From Leucoraja ocellata (lineage: Eukaryota): a DNA stretch of 64,000 bases. Positions within the stretch are counted from its first letter, which is position 1; every line of letters begins with the position of its first letter. Made by a program: the position numbers. The DNA lies in contig JAWMAR010000006.1 of the NCBI GenBank assembly GCA_036785375.1, positions 992,001 to 1,056,000 on the forward strand, written 5' to 3'. This document shows positions 1-3,000 of this stretch, piece by piece.

Positions 1-3000
1 ATTCTGTTCACAGACTTAAAGACGAGCCACGGGTGTCGGGAAAGATCAAGGACATGATTAACAGTCACAAAATAGAAATGCGTTAAAGATCTTAACATGA
101 GGGGAGCAAAGATTAAAGAACTAAACTGCAGGCTAACCTTTTACAGAGGTGGGGGCCTGGAACCCACTATCAGGGGAGATCGCAGTGGAGGCAGATATGA
201 TAGTGGTGTTCAAGAGGCGTTTGGATAGGCACATGGATATGCAGGGAATGGAGGAATATGGATCATGTGCAGCCAGATAAGGGTTTGCCTTGGCATCATG
301 TTAAGCACAGACATTGTGAGGTGAAGGGCCTGTTCCTGGGCTCTACTGTTCTAAGTTCTGTGTTCTAAAATGCACAAATAACTTGATAGAATTCTTGGTA
401 AAGGAACAGACAGGTTATTGAAGGAAGGTACTCAAAAATGCTGGAGAAACTCAGCGGGTGCAGCAGCATCTATGGAGCGAAGGAAATAGGTAACGTTTCG
501 GGCCGAAACCCTTCTTCAGACCTTCGCTCCATAGATGCTGCTGCACCCACTGAGATTCTCCAGCATTTTTGTGTACCTTCGATTTTCCAGCATCTGCAGT
601 TCCTTCTTGAACAGGTTATTGAAGGACATGTCATTGATGGAGTATATATTAAGCATTTGATATATAGCAACAAGGATAGAAAATTAGCCAGGACGGGACG
701 AATAGTAGTCAAAGGTTGCTTTTCACGTCCAAGGAAAATGTACAGTGGAGTTTCAATTGCATTGGATCACTGGCTCAAAGGTGCTTTATTGTCACATGTG
801 CATAGCTTTTTATTTATTTATTTATTTATTTATTAGAAGTAAGTACAATACAGTGGTACCTTTTTTCAGGTGCCAAATATATGTTAACATGATACATTCT
901 CTGTACAACTTAATTTTTTTTATTTTTTTAAAGAGAGAAATAAGAAAGAAAGAGATAGTAGAGAGTAGAAAAACATGTAATGTGTATAAACAAAGAGAGA
1001 GATAGTGAGGAAGAGAAATAAGGAAGAAGAGAGTGCAAGAGAGAGATTAGCAAATAGACAATAGGAGATGAGTTTTTATATTGTTGATCATCTTTCACCC
1101 AGTACATGTGCCCAGTACATGTGCATAGCTACAGAAAAAAATCTTTCTTTTACATGCAATCCAATACAATCTTATTCATGAGCAGAATCATTCCTTAGTA
1201 CATGGGTGCAACGATTATGACGTAATTTTTTCTCATGACCATTTTCTCAATGCCTTGCCTATTTAATGTCTCTCTGAACACTACTTAAGTATCGTAATTA
1301 TATTTCATTCCACCACCTATTCTCGCGGTACTTTCCAGACATCAACCACTTTCTATGTTAAATCGTTGTCCTCAAATACCCTTCAAAGCTCTTGCCTTTT
1401 GGCACAGCGCTTGTGATGCACTGGGCAGTGTCGACCATTCTCAGTAATCTCCTTTTTCCCTGGACATTCGTGTTGCTAAAGCAACCAGTCAGTATGTTCT
1501 CTACCATACACCTGCAGACGTTAAGGTTCTGAGAGAAAAATCTATTTGAGCTGCACGGTAGCACAGCGATAGAGGTGCTGCCTTGCAGCGCCAGAGACCC
1601 GGGTTCGATCCTGACTGCGGGTGCTGCCTTTATGGAGCTTGCACGTTCTCCCTGTGATTGCGTGGGTTTTCTCCGGATGCTCTGGTTTTCTCCCACAATC
1701 CAAAGACGTACAGGTTTGAAGGTTGATTGGGTTAAGTAAAAAATTGTAAATTGAACCTAATGTTTAGGATAGTGCTAGGGTAGGGGATGATCGCTGGTCA
1801 CCACGGACTCGGGCGGCCGAATGGCCAGTTTCCACGCTCCATCTCCAAAGTCTAAGGAATTCGGCGATACAATATGAAGGAGATTGGCAAAAAAAAAGAT
1901 GCATTCTGTAGGGGTAGTTGTGGAGACAGAATCACTTGATGCATTTTAAAAAATGTATCTGAAAGGAAAGATATTTATAAGGGAGGAGCAAGGGTGGAAG
2001 AATGGGACCAACTGATAGCTATTAGACTTGATGAGCCAAATGGTTGATTTTGTGCTGTAAACACTCTGAGATGTTTTGATTCTTTGCTGAAATAAGCAGA
2101 CACTGAGGCAGAGGGCTGGAGAATGAAACCATAGACCTGAATTTAAATCCCATCAGATTTAAATTCATGTCAGTATATAATCCTGAAATGTATTTAGTTT
2201 TAAATTGATAATATCGGTAACTATAACACCACCAGATTGCTGTAAAAACCCATCTGGTCCATTAATCACTTGAATGGAAGGAATTTGTCCATGCTTACTT
2301 GTTCTGGTCTCCAGAACCTTAACTGCCTTGTTTTCAGGGGCAATTTGGGTTAGCAATCAAAGACCTCCTTGCGATGTAAAGGAACAAATAAAACAAGATG
2401 GGTTTTCCCACGGGAGTGACCAAATTGTTTGGGAGGTGCTTCCCACACACAAATGGACGCAGCACTTGGTGGGTCAATTTAGAAGGAACATTCTTGGTAA
2501 ACAATGGAGCTGAAACTGACTTTAATGTGTGGGGAGAATGGGGTGTAGAACAGAATGTGTCAACAATCATGAGTCAAGAATCAAAAGTCAAGAGTGTTTA
2601 ATTGCCATCTGTACTGACAACAGAACAATGACATTCTCTTATTTGCTGCAGCTTTACAAGCCCATTAATACATTAATACACAAATAAATATACAATGATC
2701 AGTAATACAATAAATTAACAATCAGTAATACGTGGTAACCAGACCGTCATAGTGGAAAACTAAAGTGTCAAGTCAGGTCGTGCATTCTTAAATTAATCTG
2801 CATATAGCGTTTGAATACTGTTGACTCGAATTAATTGTAAAGTTACACAAAATAAAAATGCCATAGCCTATACAATCCTAATTAAATGTGAATATTGGTA
2901 AGCATACAATTAAGCAAATAGCTAGAAGTGTCTTCGGGAGAGGATAAAATTATTAAAAACATGAACTTTTTACACTCTGCTAAACAAGTGAATAAAATTT

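What the first reader, a model, noticed from the sequence alone, without database searches (positions are those of the whole stretch)
410..626. Hammerhead units inserted on their own: 90-240 bp non-coding mini-PLEs with long TSDs
Seen: at least six ORF-less terminal units have direct-repeat flanks of 16 bp (410-425/611-626), 14 bp (17676/17932), ~10 bp (33150/33252), 14 bp (39220/39406), 11 bp (42471/42585) and ~15 bp (62467/62688). Several begin at or next to the first bases of the hammerhead (33160, 54957, 42487). They have no tRNA head or poly(A). Inference: each is a separate insertion event, either a ribozyme-delimited, retrozyme-like non-autonomous class mobilised by PLE RT/GIY-YIG, or extreme truncation products with a preferred stop at the ribozyme fold.
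Basis: partly seen in the sequence, partly recalled or inferred. Interest (0 to 1): 0.72.

Follow-up and report, generated by a model that had tools for sequence, protein, structure and literature searches.

The report
Miniature Penelope-like retroelement insertions
The short hammerhead-bearing repeats are real, separately inserted fragments of a Penelope-like retrotransposon family, and their odd shapes follow the insertion pattern already described for such elements, so the finding is correct but largely ordinary.

Summary
Observation confirmed. All six flanking direct repeats are at the stated coordinates: 16/16, 14/14, 9/10, 14/14, 11/11 and 13/15. Five are rare in 3000 random pseudo-units; the 9/10 pair is weak on its own.

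The units belong to one family of 46 arms covering 6.3% of the window. The family shows the published hallmarks of Penelope-like element (PLE) insertions:
- a minimal hammerhead without helix III
- variable 5' truncation
- adjacent inverted 5'-truncated copies
- an optional ~32-nt 3' "tail", present on exactly one arm in 11 of 12 inverted pairs
- one partial tandem
- TSDs of 10-16 bp
- no poly(A) and no tRNA head

Each unit is therefore a separate insertion. A retrozyme-like class is not supported:
- there are no tandem arrays
- unit ends do not lie at the ribozyme cleavage site
- there is no circular permutation
- short arms intermix with longer arms on a tree

A sharp 5'-end hotspot at the first base of the hammerhead core is real: 15 of 37 arms, P about 4e-16. 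I read it, tentatively, as the template RNA's own 5' end.

No PLE RT or GIY-YIG ORF lies in the window (194 ORFs). PLE membership therefore rests on architecture. Novelty is low.

The parts
410..425 (.). left copy of the 16-bp target-site duplication of unit 426-610
   Evidence: 16/16 identical to 611-626. Score 16 was reached by 3 of 3000 random pseudo-units.
426..521 (-). arm M of the unit: sense strand is minus, model columns 1-98; holds the whole hammerhead core and has no 3' tail
   Evidence: nhmmer hit 521->424/411. It starts at the first base of the core and ends at the proximal ('no-tail') 3' site.
496..519 (-). minimal hammerhead core (CUGAAGA box, unpaired A, helix II with a UUCG loop, GAAA box); predicted cleavage three bases further on, between 492 and 491 on the minus strand
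   Evidence: Regex hit. The core sits in the apical loop of a hairpin of -116.6 kcal/mol, z = -15.6. No Rfam hammerhead model matches, even at E<=5.
522..610 (+). arm P: inverted, 5'-truncated copy (model columns about 37-133) lacking the hammerhead core; its last 32 nt (579-610) are the optional 'tail'
   Evidence: The tail sequence is absent from arm M, so arm P cannot be a snap-back copy of arm M.
611..626 (.). right copy of the 16-bp target-site duplication
17690..17931 (+). 242-bp unit: a 36-nt inverted tail fragment (17690-17725, minus), then a sense arm running from about 122 nt upstream of the hammerhead to the no-tail end; core at 17840-17863; 14-bp TSD at 17676-17689 / 17932-17945
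   Evidence: The upstream 116 nt are homologous to 45105-45220.
33160..33251 (+). solo arm, model columns 1-93, no tail; core at 33162-33185; 10-bp TSD (9/10) abutting both ends
39234..39405 (+). young inverted pair: minus arm covers columns 35-99 (no tail), plus arm covers columns about 18-129 (tail); no complete hammerhead core; 14-bp TSD; nested inside an older arm
   Evidence: The two arms match at 59/60 positions.
42482..42584 (+). solo arm, columns 1-94, preceded by 5 extra bases; core box mutated; 11-bp TSD
62482..62687 (.). full palindromic pair: minus arm columns 1-100 (no tail, core at 62561-62538) and plus arm columns 1-130 (tail, core at 62563-62586) meeting at column 1-3; 15-bp TSD (13/15)
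38840..39415 (.). older palindromic pair: minus arm columns 1-128 with tail, split by an unrelated ~180-bp insert; plus arm columns 1-88 without tail; hosts the nested young unit 39234-39405; TSD 14/15 at 38825-38839 / 39416-39430
41038..41273 (.). old palindromic pair: minus arm columns 1-101 (no tail) and plus arm columns 1-129 (tail), both starting at column 0-1; no TSD detectable
54957..55054 (+). young solo arm, columns 1-100, intact core at 54959-54982; no TSD found; lies just outside the 5' side of a tyrosine-recombinase retroelement
9032..9191 (-). head-to-tail partial tandem: an arm of columns 52-127 (with tail) followed after about 5 nt by an arm of columns 14-92

Best explanation
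The units are miniature insertions of a Penelope-like retroelement (PLE) family: the last ~90-240 nt of the element, made by target-primed reverse transcription. The steps below are marked as shown here or inferred.

1. Template region (inferred from published PLEs). The region copied is the pLTR/ORF junction, which carries a minimal hammerhead.

2. Two 3' start sites.
- Shown here: 3' ends fall into two classes about 32 nt apart.
- Inferred: the element's reverse transcriptase does not start at an RNA 3' end. It starts at one of two internal sites, near model column 98 or near column 130. This matches Frangieh et al. 2024 for a lizard PLE.

3. Priming on both strands.
- Shown here: 12 adjacent head-to-head pairs; in five of them a TSD flanks the whole pair.
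- Inferred: the GIY-YIG nuclease nicks both target strands 10-16 bp apart, and either or both 3' ends prime cDNA. One priming gives a solo arm. Two primings give a head-to-head inverted pair inside a single TSD.

4. One tail per pair.
- Shown here: in 11 of 12 pairs one arm starts at the distal site (has the tail) and the other at the proximal site (no tail).

5. Where cDNA synthesis ends.
- Shown here: 5' ends are spread widely, with a sharp peak at the first base of the hammerhead core.
[quoted passage not shown] In arms that extend upstream, the native context ..TCA|GTCT.. fits an initiator-type start. The commonest minis would then be run-off cDNAs made from the start site nearest the RNA 5' end.

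6. Fate of the minis (inferred). Because initiation is internal, new minis lack whatever lies downstream of the start site in the source RNA. They are probably dead-on-arrival by-products, not a self-propagating lineage.
For: Family census:
- 46 arms, 4051 bp of the window.

Hammerhead:
- 9 intact cores have the CUGANGA and GAAA boxes, an unpaired base before helix II, a G-C pair closing helix II, and the palindromic ACGU in place of helix III. These are the features Cervera & De la Pena 2014 list for PLE min-HHRs (PMC4209133, text read).
- 83% of helix cells are paired, against 35-46% for 3' partners slid by 1-2 columns (8-43% at 3), with 5 compensatory cells.

3' ends:
- Bimodal, with none at columns 109-120: 26 arms end at columns 73-108 and 18 end at 121-130.

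Pairs:
- 11 of 12 adjacent head-to-head pairs carry the tail on exactly one arm. P(>=11 of 12) = 0.002 if tails were independent.
- One head-to-tail partial tandem.

TSDs:
- 10-16 bp at 8 loci.

Other features:
- No tRNA-like gene and no poly(A).
- Arms that extend 47 to >340 nt upstream of the hammerhead exist (8 of 46).
- The arm classes intermix on the tree.

Published matches:
- Craig et al. 2021 (PMC8557442, passages): high 5' truncation, an adjacent inverted 5'-truncated copy, and a 30-40-bp tail often at one end only.
- Arkhipova et al. 2013 (PMC3846280, passages): inverted pLTR plus a 31-bp tail on one of them, 8-10-bp TSDs, solo pLTRs, palindromes at the inverted junction.
- Frangieh et al. 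2024 (PMC11167929, main text read): the protein cleaves and extends both strands; reverse transcription starts at two internal sites, and the tail is the sequence between them; the hammerhead sits at the pLTR-ORF junction with its cut site 26 nt after the start codon.

5' hotspot:
- 15 of 37 arms start at columns 1-2, P about 4e-16. Twelve of the 15 are verified by an abutting TSD or an inverted junction.
Against: - No PLE-type RT or GIY-YIG ORF is in the window. None of 194 stop-to-stop ORFs >=70 aa matches; the only RT belongs to a tyrosine-recombinase element. The link to a PLE protein is therefore not shown.
- A 41-aa ORF that starts in the unit found no PLE protein, only two E~0.2 hits to a little-skate MEIOB gene model.
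- Rfam hammerhead models do not match, even at E<=5.
- 19 of 28 loci have no detectable TSD.
- The five youngest loci in the window are all short (<=242 bp). This is also what a non-autonomous lineage would give.
- A TATA-like run upstream of the proposed start is seen in only 2-3 of the 8 upstream-extended arms.
- Extra bases before column 1 are inconsistent: G in four arms, A in three.
- One distant inverted pair (27269-27373 / 28435-28539) has a tail on both arms.
Confidence: 0.78

Rival explanations
1. The short units are a self-propagating, non-autonomous, retrozyme-like or SINE-like lineage. Short RNAs delimited by the ribozyme are copied again and again by PLE enzymes supplied in trans.
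For: - High density: 46 arms in 64 kb.
- A discrete preferred 5' end.
- The five youngest loci are all <=242 bp, and three of them share 95-100% identity over columns 37-98.
- The hairpin unit 426-610 supplies a long helix I for its hammerhead.
- Li, Clavereau & Pollet 2026 (preprint; abstract and Results read) argue that vertebrate retrozymes derive from PLE pLTRs and leave dispersed monomers.
Against: - No tandem arrays of the unit: TRF finds none. The single partial tandem has no intact core.
- Ends are not at the cleavage site. Only 3 of 46 arms start next to it.
- No circular permutation.
- Breakpoints of the inverted pairs differ from pair to pair (columns 1, 18, 25, 29, 35, 37, 42, 53, 59, 94), so the pairs are independent events and not copies of one master.
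- The arm classes intermix on the tree.
- Solo arms starting at column 1 keep only 2 nt of the 5' strand of helix I.
- For the one PLE studied in vitro, the template must extend beyond the start site (the first 172 nt of the ORF are required; PMC11167929). Inserted minis would lack that part.
Confidence: 0.12
2. The family is the 3' end of a non-PLE retroelement (a LINE or a LINE-dependent SINE) that happens to carry a hammerhead-like motif.
For: - 5' truncation and variable TSDs are also LINE traits.
- No PLE ORF is in the window.
- Rfam does not call a hammerhead.
Against: - No poly(A) or microsatellite tail, and no tRNA head.
- The inverted adjacent arms, with a two-class 3' end and one tail per pair, are described for PLEs and are stated not to be seen in non-LTR TPRT (PMC8557442, passage).
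- The motif has all four extra features of PLE min-HHRs.
Confidence: 0.07
3. The palindromic units are MITE-like DNA transposons with terminal inverted repeats.
For: Units such as 426-610 and 62482-62687 are long hairpins flanked by direct repeats.
Against: - TSD length varies from 10 to 16 bp.
- Most arms are solo and have no inverted partner.
- The two arms of a pair end at different positions, and one carries 32 extra nt.
- Arm lengths differ from pair to pair.
Confidence: 0.02

Closest known systems
Endonuclease-positive Penelope-like elements (Penelope/Poseidon, Neptune clades) and their truncated, solo or inverted pLTR insertions
   Same: - Minimal hammerhead near the element's 3' end.
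- Heavy 5' truncation.
- Adjacent inverted 5'-truncated copy.
- Optional ~30-40-bp tail at one end.
- Partial tandem.
- Short, variable TSDs.
- No poly(A).
- The start of an ORF overlaps the terminal repeat.
Window evidence. Literature: PMC8557442, PMC3846280, PMC11167929, PMC4209133.
   Different: - No RT/GIY-YIG ORF is present in this window, so the coding link is untested.
- Here the insertions are extremely short: all arms seen span no more than about 0.6 kb.
- 5' ends pile up on the first base of the hammerhead core. I did not find this detail stated in the parts of those papers that I read.
Metazoan non-LTR retrozymes (Cervera & De la Pena 2020; Li, Clavereau & Pollet 2026 preprint)
   Same: - Small, non-coding, hammerhead-bearing repeats thought to depend on PLE enzymes.
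- Dispersed monomers exist.
- TSDs are longer than 4 bp.
   Different: Retrozymes are head-to-tail tandem repeats of 150-450 bp with canonical type I hammerheads, and they are expressed as circular RNAs (PMC7229834, passages). Here:
- there is no tandem array
- the hammerhead is the minimal type
- unit ends are not at the cleavage site
- there is no permutation.
L1 twin priming / 5' inversion
   Same: Both nicked target strands prime cDNA, giving an inverted 5' segment inside one TSD. This comparison rests on general knowledge, recalled, not on a paper read here.
   Different: In L1 the inverted part is a different, upstream part of the same RNA. Here both arms copy the same 3'-terminal region, from two distinct start sites.

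Membership tests
Penelope-like elements (EN+) | single ORF with a PLE-clade reverse transcriptase and a GIY-YIG endonuclease, linked to the repeat | tested here: inconclusive
   None of 194 ORFs >=70 aa in the window matches GIY-YIG or a PLE RT. The only RVT_1 hit belongs to a tyrosine-recombinase element. The window holds only short arms, so absence here does not test the family's master copies. No eukaryotic genome collection was available.
Penelope-like elements (EN+) | minimal hammerhead motif in the terminal repeat: core boxes, a base between positions 9 and 10.1, a G10.1-C11.1 pair, a palindromic 15.2-16.2 and no helix III | tested here: met
   9 intact cores. Alignment of 24 cores. 83% of helix cells are paired, against 35-46% for partners slid by 1-2 columns. 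Self-cleavage was not tested.
Penelope-like elements (EN+) | optional 30-40-bp 3' extension ('tail'), often at one end of an insertion only | tested here: met
   Two classes of 3' end about 32 nt apart, with none between. The tail is on exactly one arm in 11 of 12 adjacent inverted pairs.
Penelope-like elements (EN+) | frequent 5' truncation, with an inverted 5'-truncated copy adjacent, and partial tandems | tested here: met
   5' ends run from column 1 to column 94, and 8 arms extend upstream. There are 12 head-to-head pairs and one head-to-tail partial tandem at 9032-9191.
Penelope-like elements (EN+) | short target-site duplications of variable length; no poly(A) | tested here: met
   8 loci have TSDs of 10-16 bp. 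19 of 28 loci have none detectable. No A-runs at the 3' ends.
Non-LTR retrozymes | head-to-tail tandem repeats, each unit carrying a hammerhead | tested here: not met
   TRF finds no array of the unit. nhmmer shows solo arms, inverted pairs and a single coreless partial tandem.
Non-LTR retrozymes | canonical type I hammerhead with helix III and loop-loop contacts | tested here: not met
   No Rfam hammerhead family matches at gathering score or at E<=5. Helix III is replaced by the four-base palindrome.
Non-LTR retrozymes | unit delimited by self-cleavage sites, or circularly permuted copies | tested here: not met
   The cleavage site lies 30 nt inside the unit. 3 of 46 arms start next to it. 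There is no homology between sequence after the tail and sequence before the hammerhead.
Non-LTR retrozymes | expression as unit-length linear and circular RNA | not testable with these tools
   No RNA data.
tRNA-, 5S- or 7SL-derived SINEs | pol III-type head and a LINE-like or A-rich tail | tested here: not met
   ARAGORN finds 0 genes. Rfam finds no tRNA, 5S or 7SL. No A-rich tail.
MITEs | terminal inverted repeats with a TSD of fixed length | tested here: not met
   TSDs are 10, 11, 12, 14, 14, 15, 15 and 16 bp. Most arms have no inverted partner.

The most novel reading that the evidence does not exclude
The pile-up of 5' ends on the first base of the hammerhead core marks a defined 5' end of the template RNA: a transcription start at the initiator-like ..TCA|GTCT.., or a processing site. 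On this reading the commonest minis are complete run-off cDNAs, not failed long copies. They are made when the PLE enzyme enters at the internal start site nearest the RNA's 5' end. A dimeric enzyme primes on both target strands, one subunit from the distal site and one from the proximal site, which would explain one tail per pair. The near-palindrome TCAG-N-CTGA at that spot then lets two such cDNA ends anneal, giving the three perfect head-to-head pairs.

If true, this would be a genomic, in vivo read-out of the two-start-site, two-strand mechanism so far seen only in vitro for one lizard element.
Probability: 0.3. Interest if true: 0.45.

Novelty: already known. Interest (0 to 1): 0.22.

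Why it matters
Mostly as housekeeping.

- A tenth of a kilobase at a time, this family fills about 6% of the window. Its hairpin-shaped copies mimic miRNA precursors (sub-threshold Rfam hits) and MITEs. Recognising them as PLE ends prevents mis-annotation.
- For PLE specialists the window offers a compact natural sample: 12 inverted pairs and 8 TSD-flanked events. It agrees with the in vitro picture of internal initiation at two sites and priming on both strands.
- It adds one small, testable detail: the 5'-end hotspot at the first hammerhead base.
- It does not reveal a new kind of mobile element.

Tried and rejected
- **Rfam on the whole window**, at gathering scores and at E<=5. No hammerhead family matched. 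The hairpin units gave only sub-threshold miRNA-precursor hits, which I read as generic hairpin matches.

- **Six-frame read-through of the window with stops as X**, to look for decayed RT/EN remnants. I used stop-to-stop ORFs under the standard code instead. Decayed remnants shorter than 70 codons would be missed.

- **Link to a PLE protein through the 25-codon ORF that starts in the unit.** The natural 41-aa ATG-to-stop ORF 535-657 found only two E~0.2 hits, isoforms of a little-skate MEIOB gene model, probably an exonised copy. It found no PLE protein. The tool itself warns that finding none is weak evidence.

- **Circular permutation or tandem test**. Only a 16-bp match at E = 0.04 links a post-tail flank to a pre-hammerhead flank. 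Rejected.

- **Snap-back origin of the inverted arm.** Rejected for 426-610 and the other one-tail pairs, because the tail-bearing arm contains 32 nt that the other arm lacks.

- **Hammerhead self-cleavage as the source of the main 5' end.** Rejected: the hotspot is 30 nt upstream of the predicted cut.

- **A 3' splice site at the hotspot,** as in the Drosophila virilis element. Arms starting there share no upstream exon sequence. Rejected.

- **Literal search of the paper library** for a 28-nt core string from the window: 0 papers.

- **TSD search at 21 more loci**. Only 38825/39416 is convincing.

- **Not checked:**
  - supplementary files of the papers (closed), which may already show this fish family or its 5'-end distribution: the fish min-HHR alignments of Cervera 2014, Fig. 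S2 of Frangieh 2024, and the Chondrichthyes tables of Li et al. 2026.
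Full report
**1. The observation**

The window is N-free, about 42% GC, and full of interspersed repeats. Nothing suggests a human contig.

Each abuts the ends of a homologous unit whose limits were set independently by nhmmer.

I scored 3000 random pseudo-units of the same lengths. A flanking repeat of score >=14 occurs in 6, >=11 in 12, >=9 in 33 and >=7 in 259. The observed scores are 16, 14, 7, 14, 11 and 9. Five pairs are therefore clearly non-random. The 10-bp pair at 33150 stands only on its exact abutment.

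Two more flanked units exist: 35674/35853 (11/12) and 38825/39416 (14/15). Of 28 loci tested, 19 have no detectable flanking repeat, and one has only a T-run. No tRNA-like gene is in the window, and no unit ends in an A-run.

**2. One family, many arms**

A BLAST of unit 426-610 against the window gave 47 local hits. Iterated nhmmer with a sense-strand model gave 44 arms. A 132-column model that includes the 3' extension also gave 44. The union is 46 arms covering 4051 bp, 6.3% of the window.

On the sense strand each arm reads: hammerhead core, about 65 nt, then optionally about 32 nt more.

Nine arms keep an intact core. The core has:
- the CUGANGA box
- one unpaired base
- a 4-bp helix II closed by G-C
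- the GAAA box
- the four-base palindrome ACGU where helix III would be
- a cut predicted after the next base

These are the features that Cervera & De la Pena (2014; PMC4209133, text read through the Discussion) give for the minimal hammerheads of PLEs. That paper also says that most such motifs occur singly, 'probably related to truncated PLEs', and that some occur as close pairs on opposite strands.

Across 24 aligned cores, 83% of helix cells pair, against 35-46% when the 3' partner is slid by 1-2 columns (8-43% at 3). There are only 5 compensatory cells, so support for the fold is modest. Rfam's hammerhead models do not match at gathering score or at E<=5, as expected for a motif without helix III. 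Ribozyme activity is not shown.

**3. Architecture**

- **3' ends.** They are bimodal with an empty gap: 26 arms end at columns 73-108 (mode 91-101), 18 end at 121-130, and none at 109-120.
- **Pairs.** Twelve pairs of arms lie head to head. In 11 the extension ('tail') is on exactly one arm, and in one pair on neither. If tails were assigned independently, P(>=11 of 12) = 0.002.
- **Unit 426-610 is such a pair.**
  - The minus arm 521->426 covers columns 1-98, holds the core and has no tail.
  - The plus arm 522-610 covers columns about 37-133, has no core, and its tail is 579-610.
  - Both arms lie within one 16-bp TSD.
  - The tail-bearing arm contains sequence that the other arm lacks, so it cannot be a fold-back copy of it.
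- **Pairs flanked by one TSD.** TSDs flank the whole pair at 426-610, 17690-17931, 35686-35852, 38840-39415, 39234-39405 and 62482-62687. At 17690-17931 the inverted arm is only a 36-nt tail fragment.
- **Breakpoints.** The 5' breakpoints of the arms differ from pair to pair (columns 1, 18, 25, 29, 35, 37, 42, 53, 59, 94), so the pairs are independent events.
- **Partial tandem.** There is one head-to-tail partial tandem at 9032-9191.

**4. 5' ends**

Eight arms continue upstream of the core by 47 to more than 340 nt, with a conserved ..TCA or ..TCG before core base 1. They share upstream homology with one another:
- 17721-17836 with 45105-45220
- 45301-45443 with 9667-9809
- 45265-45318 with 58039-58092

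Of the 37 arms whose 5' end lies inside the model, 15 start at column 1-2 and 22 at columns 6-94. This count treats the two near-identical arms at 27379 and 28430 as one. The binomial P is about 4e-16. Twelve of the 15 are verified by an abutting TSD or by an inverted junction. Three (25187, 39952, 54957) are not.

Truncation is therefore broad but has one sharp hotspot. The hotspot lies 30 nt upstream of the predicted cut, so it is not the self-cleavage site. Only three arms (60410, 43035, 63865) start at or next to the cut.

**5. Do the short units form their own lineage?**

I built a tree of the 36 arms that have at least 60 filled columns (10 of the 46 arms were left out as too short). It is poorly resolved: 23 of 33 inner branches are open. 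It shows no clustering of the 'start at base 1' arms, with 11 label changes against a shuffled mean of 11.7; 197 of 500 shuffles are as low.

The one well-supported young clade (SH-aLRT 96) holds the arms at 521, 495, 33160 and 54957, together with the upstream-extended arm at 45104.

Against this reading, the five youngest loci are all short. Without full-length masters, the window cannot separate 'by-products of one active master' from 'a short lineage'.

**6. Coding link**

None of the 194 stop-to-stop ORFs >=70 aa has a GIY-YIG or PLE-type RT match. The only RT (52762-54144, minus strand) is accompanied by integrase-SAM and phage-integrase matches, which marks a tyrosine-recombinase retroelement.

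Young arms carry an ATG preceded by an in-frame TAG and open to the tail end, 25 codons. This is reminiscent of published PLEs in which the terminal repeat holds the first 12-22 codons of the ORF (PMC3846280, passage), or in which the ORF starts in the hammerhead (PMC11167929).

A 41-aa natural ORF containing this peptide found no PLE protein. It found only E~0.2 hits to little-skate MEIOB isoforms. These hint that the family lives in cartilaginous fishes and is sometimes exonised.

**7. Comparison with print**

| Source | What I read | Points that match |
|---|---|---|
| Craig et al. 2021 (PMC8557442) | passages | high 5' truncation; partial tandems; an adjacent inverted 5'-truncated copy; a 30-40-bp tail often at one end only |
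| Arkhipova et al. 2013 (PMC3846280) | passages | inverted pLTRs with a 31-bp tail on one; 8-10-bp TSDs; solo pLTRs; palindromes at the inverted junction; TATA plus initiator-like motifs in the pLTR |
| Frangieh et al. 2024 (PMC11167929) | main text | the anole element's protein nicks and extends both strands; reverse transcription starts at two internal sites whose spacing is the tail; the hammerhead cut lies 26 nt after the start codon; the template needs the first 172 nt of the ORF, that is, sequence beyond the start sites |
| Schostak et al. 2008 (PMC2377424) | passages | an internal, LINE-like promoter in Penelope; its start site lies 46 bp upstream of a 75-bp intron |
| Cervera & De la Pena 2020 (PMC7229834) | passages | retrozymes defined as tandem repeats with canonical hammerheads and circular RNAs |
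| Li et al. 2026 (preprint) | abstract and first part of Results | retrozymes derived from PLE pLTRs |
| Goubert et al. 2022 curation guide (PMC8969392) | passages | the same PLE features summarised |

Every architectural trait seen here is already described.

**8. Mechanism**

- **Shown:** separate insertions with TSDs; two 3' end classes; one tail per pair; broad 5' truncation with a hotspot.
- **Inferred from the cited in vitro work:**
  - staggered nicks 10-16 bp apart
  - priming on one or both strands
  - internal initiation at a proximal or a distal site
  - joining of the two cDNAs by host repair
- **My inference for the hotspot (about 0.3):**
  - The native context matches an initiator consensus. 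I recalled that consensus; it comes from no call.
  - A TATATAT run lies about 33 nt upstream in two arms.
  - The near-palindrome TCAG-N-CTGA at that spot is the exact centre of the three full palindromic pairs (39144/39146, 41138/41145, 62561/62563).
- **Alternatives for the hotspot:** a polymerase stop at the folded, protein-bound ribozyme, or an RNA-processing site.

**9. Verdict**

The units are ordinary miniature PLE insertions, not a retrozyme-like class. Novelty is low. The 5' hotspot and the clean one-tail rule are the only points worth a specialist's glance.

Noticed in passing
window 51690-54840, minus strand: A tyrosine-recombinase (DIRS/Ngaro-type) retroelement. It has RVT_1 in a 461-aa ORF (52762-54144), an integrase SAM-like domain (52230-52634) and a phage-integrase fragment (51693-51950). 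It is the only reverse transcriptase in the window and is not a PLE. The young hammerhead arm 54957-55054 lies just beyond its 5' side.
   Followed up: partly
window 27269-27373 and 28435-28539: Two arms of the family, 94% complementary, lie head to head but 1061 nt apart. Both carry the tail, and they share about 18 nt beyond their 5' ends. No TSD was found. This is an exception to the one-tail rule. It may be foreign sequence captured between inverted ends, or an inverted duplication.
   Followed up: partly
window 39144-39146, 41138-41145, 62561-62563: The native sequence at the 5' hotspot is a near-palindrome (TCAG-N-CTGA), and it is the exact centre of the three full head-to-head pairs. 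Two antisense cDNA ends reaching this point could anneal to each other.
   Followed up: partly
window 60341-60410 (-), 43035-43145 (+), 63765-63865 (-): Three arms begin at or within a base or two of the predicted hammerhead cut site. This is compatible with occasional use of self-cleaved RNA as template, but is no more than chance would give.
   Followed up: no
window 535-657, plus strand: A 41-aa ATG-to-stop ORF starting inside the unit has 79% identity over 28 residues to isoforms of a little-skate MEIOB gene model (E about 0.2). This is probably an exonised copy of the same repeat in that annotation. It hints at a cartilaginous-fish origin for the window.
   Followed up: no
window about 9440-9484, 32003-32070, 62430-62466: A second repeat family, with a (TTTAG)n-like end followed by a conserved GC-rich stretch, abuts three arms of the hammerhead family.
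   Followed up: no
window 6173-6381: A long hairpin made of a G-run and a C-run. It gives only sub-threshold matches to several miRNA-precursor models, on both strands.
   Followed up: no
window 21178-21558: A minisatellite of 48 bp x 8 copies (86% matches). It reads as a repetitive open frame of 169 codons.
   Followed up: no
window 38895-39074: An unrelated ~180-bp insert splits the minus arm of the old palindromic pair between model columns 73 and 74. Together with the nested young unit at 39234-39405, this locus records three successive insertions.
   Followed up: no
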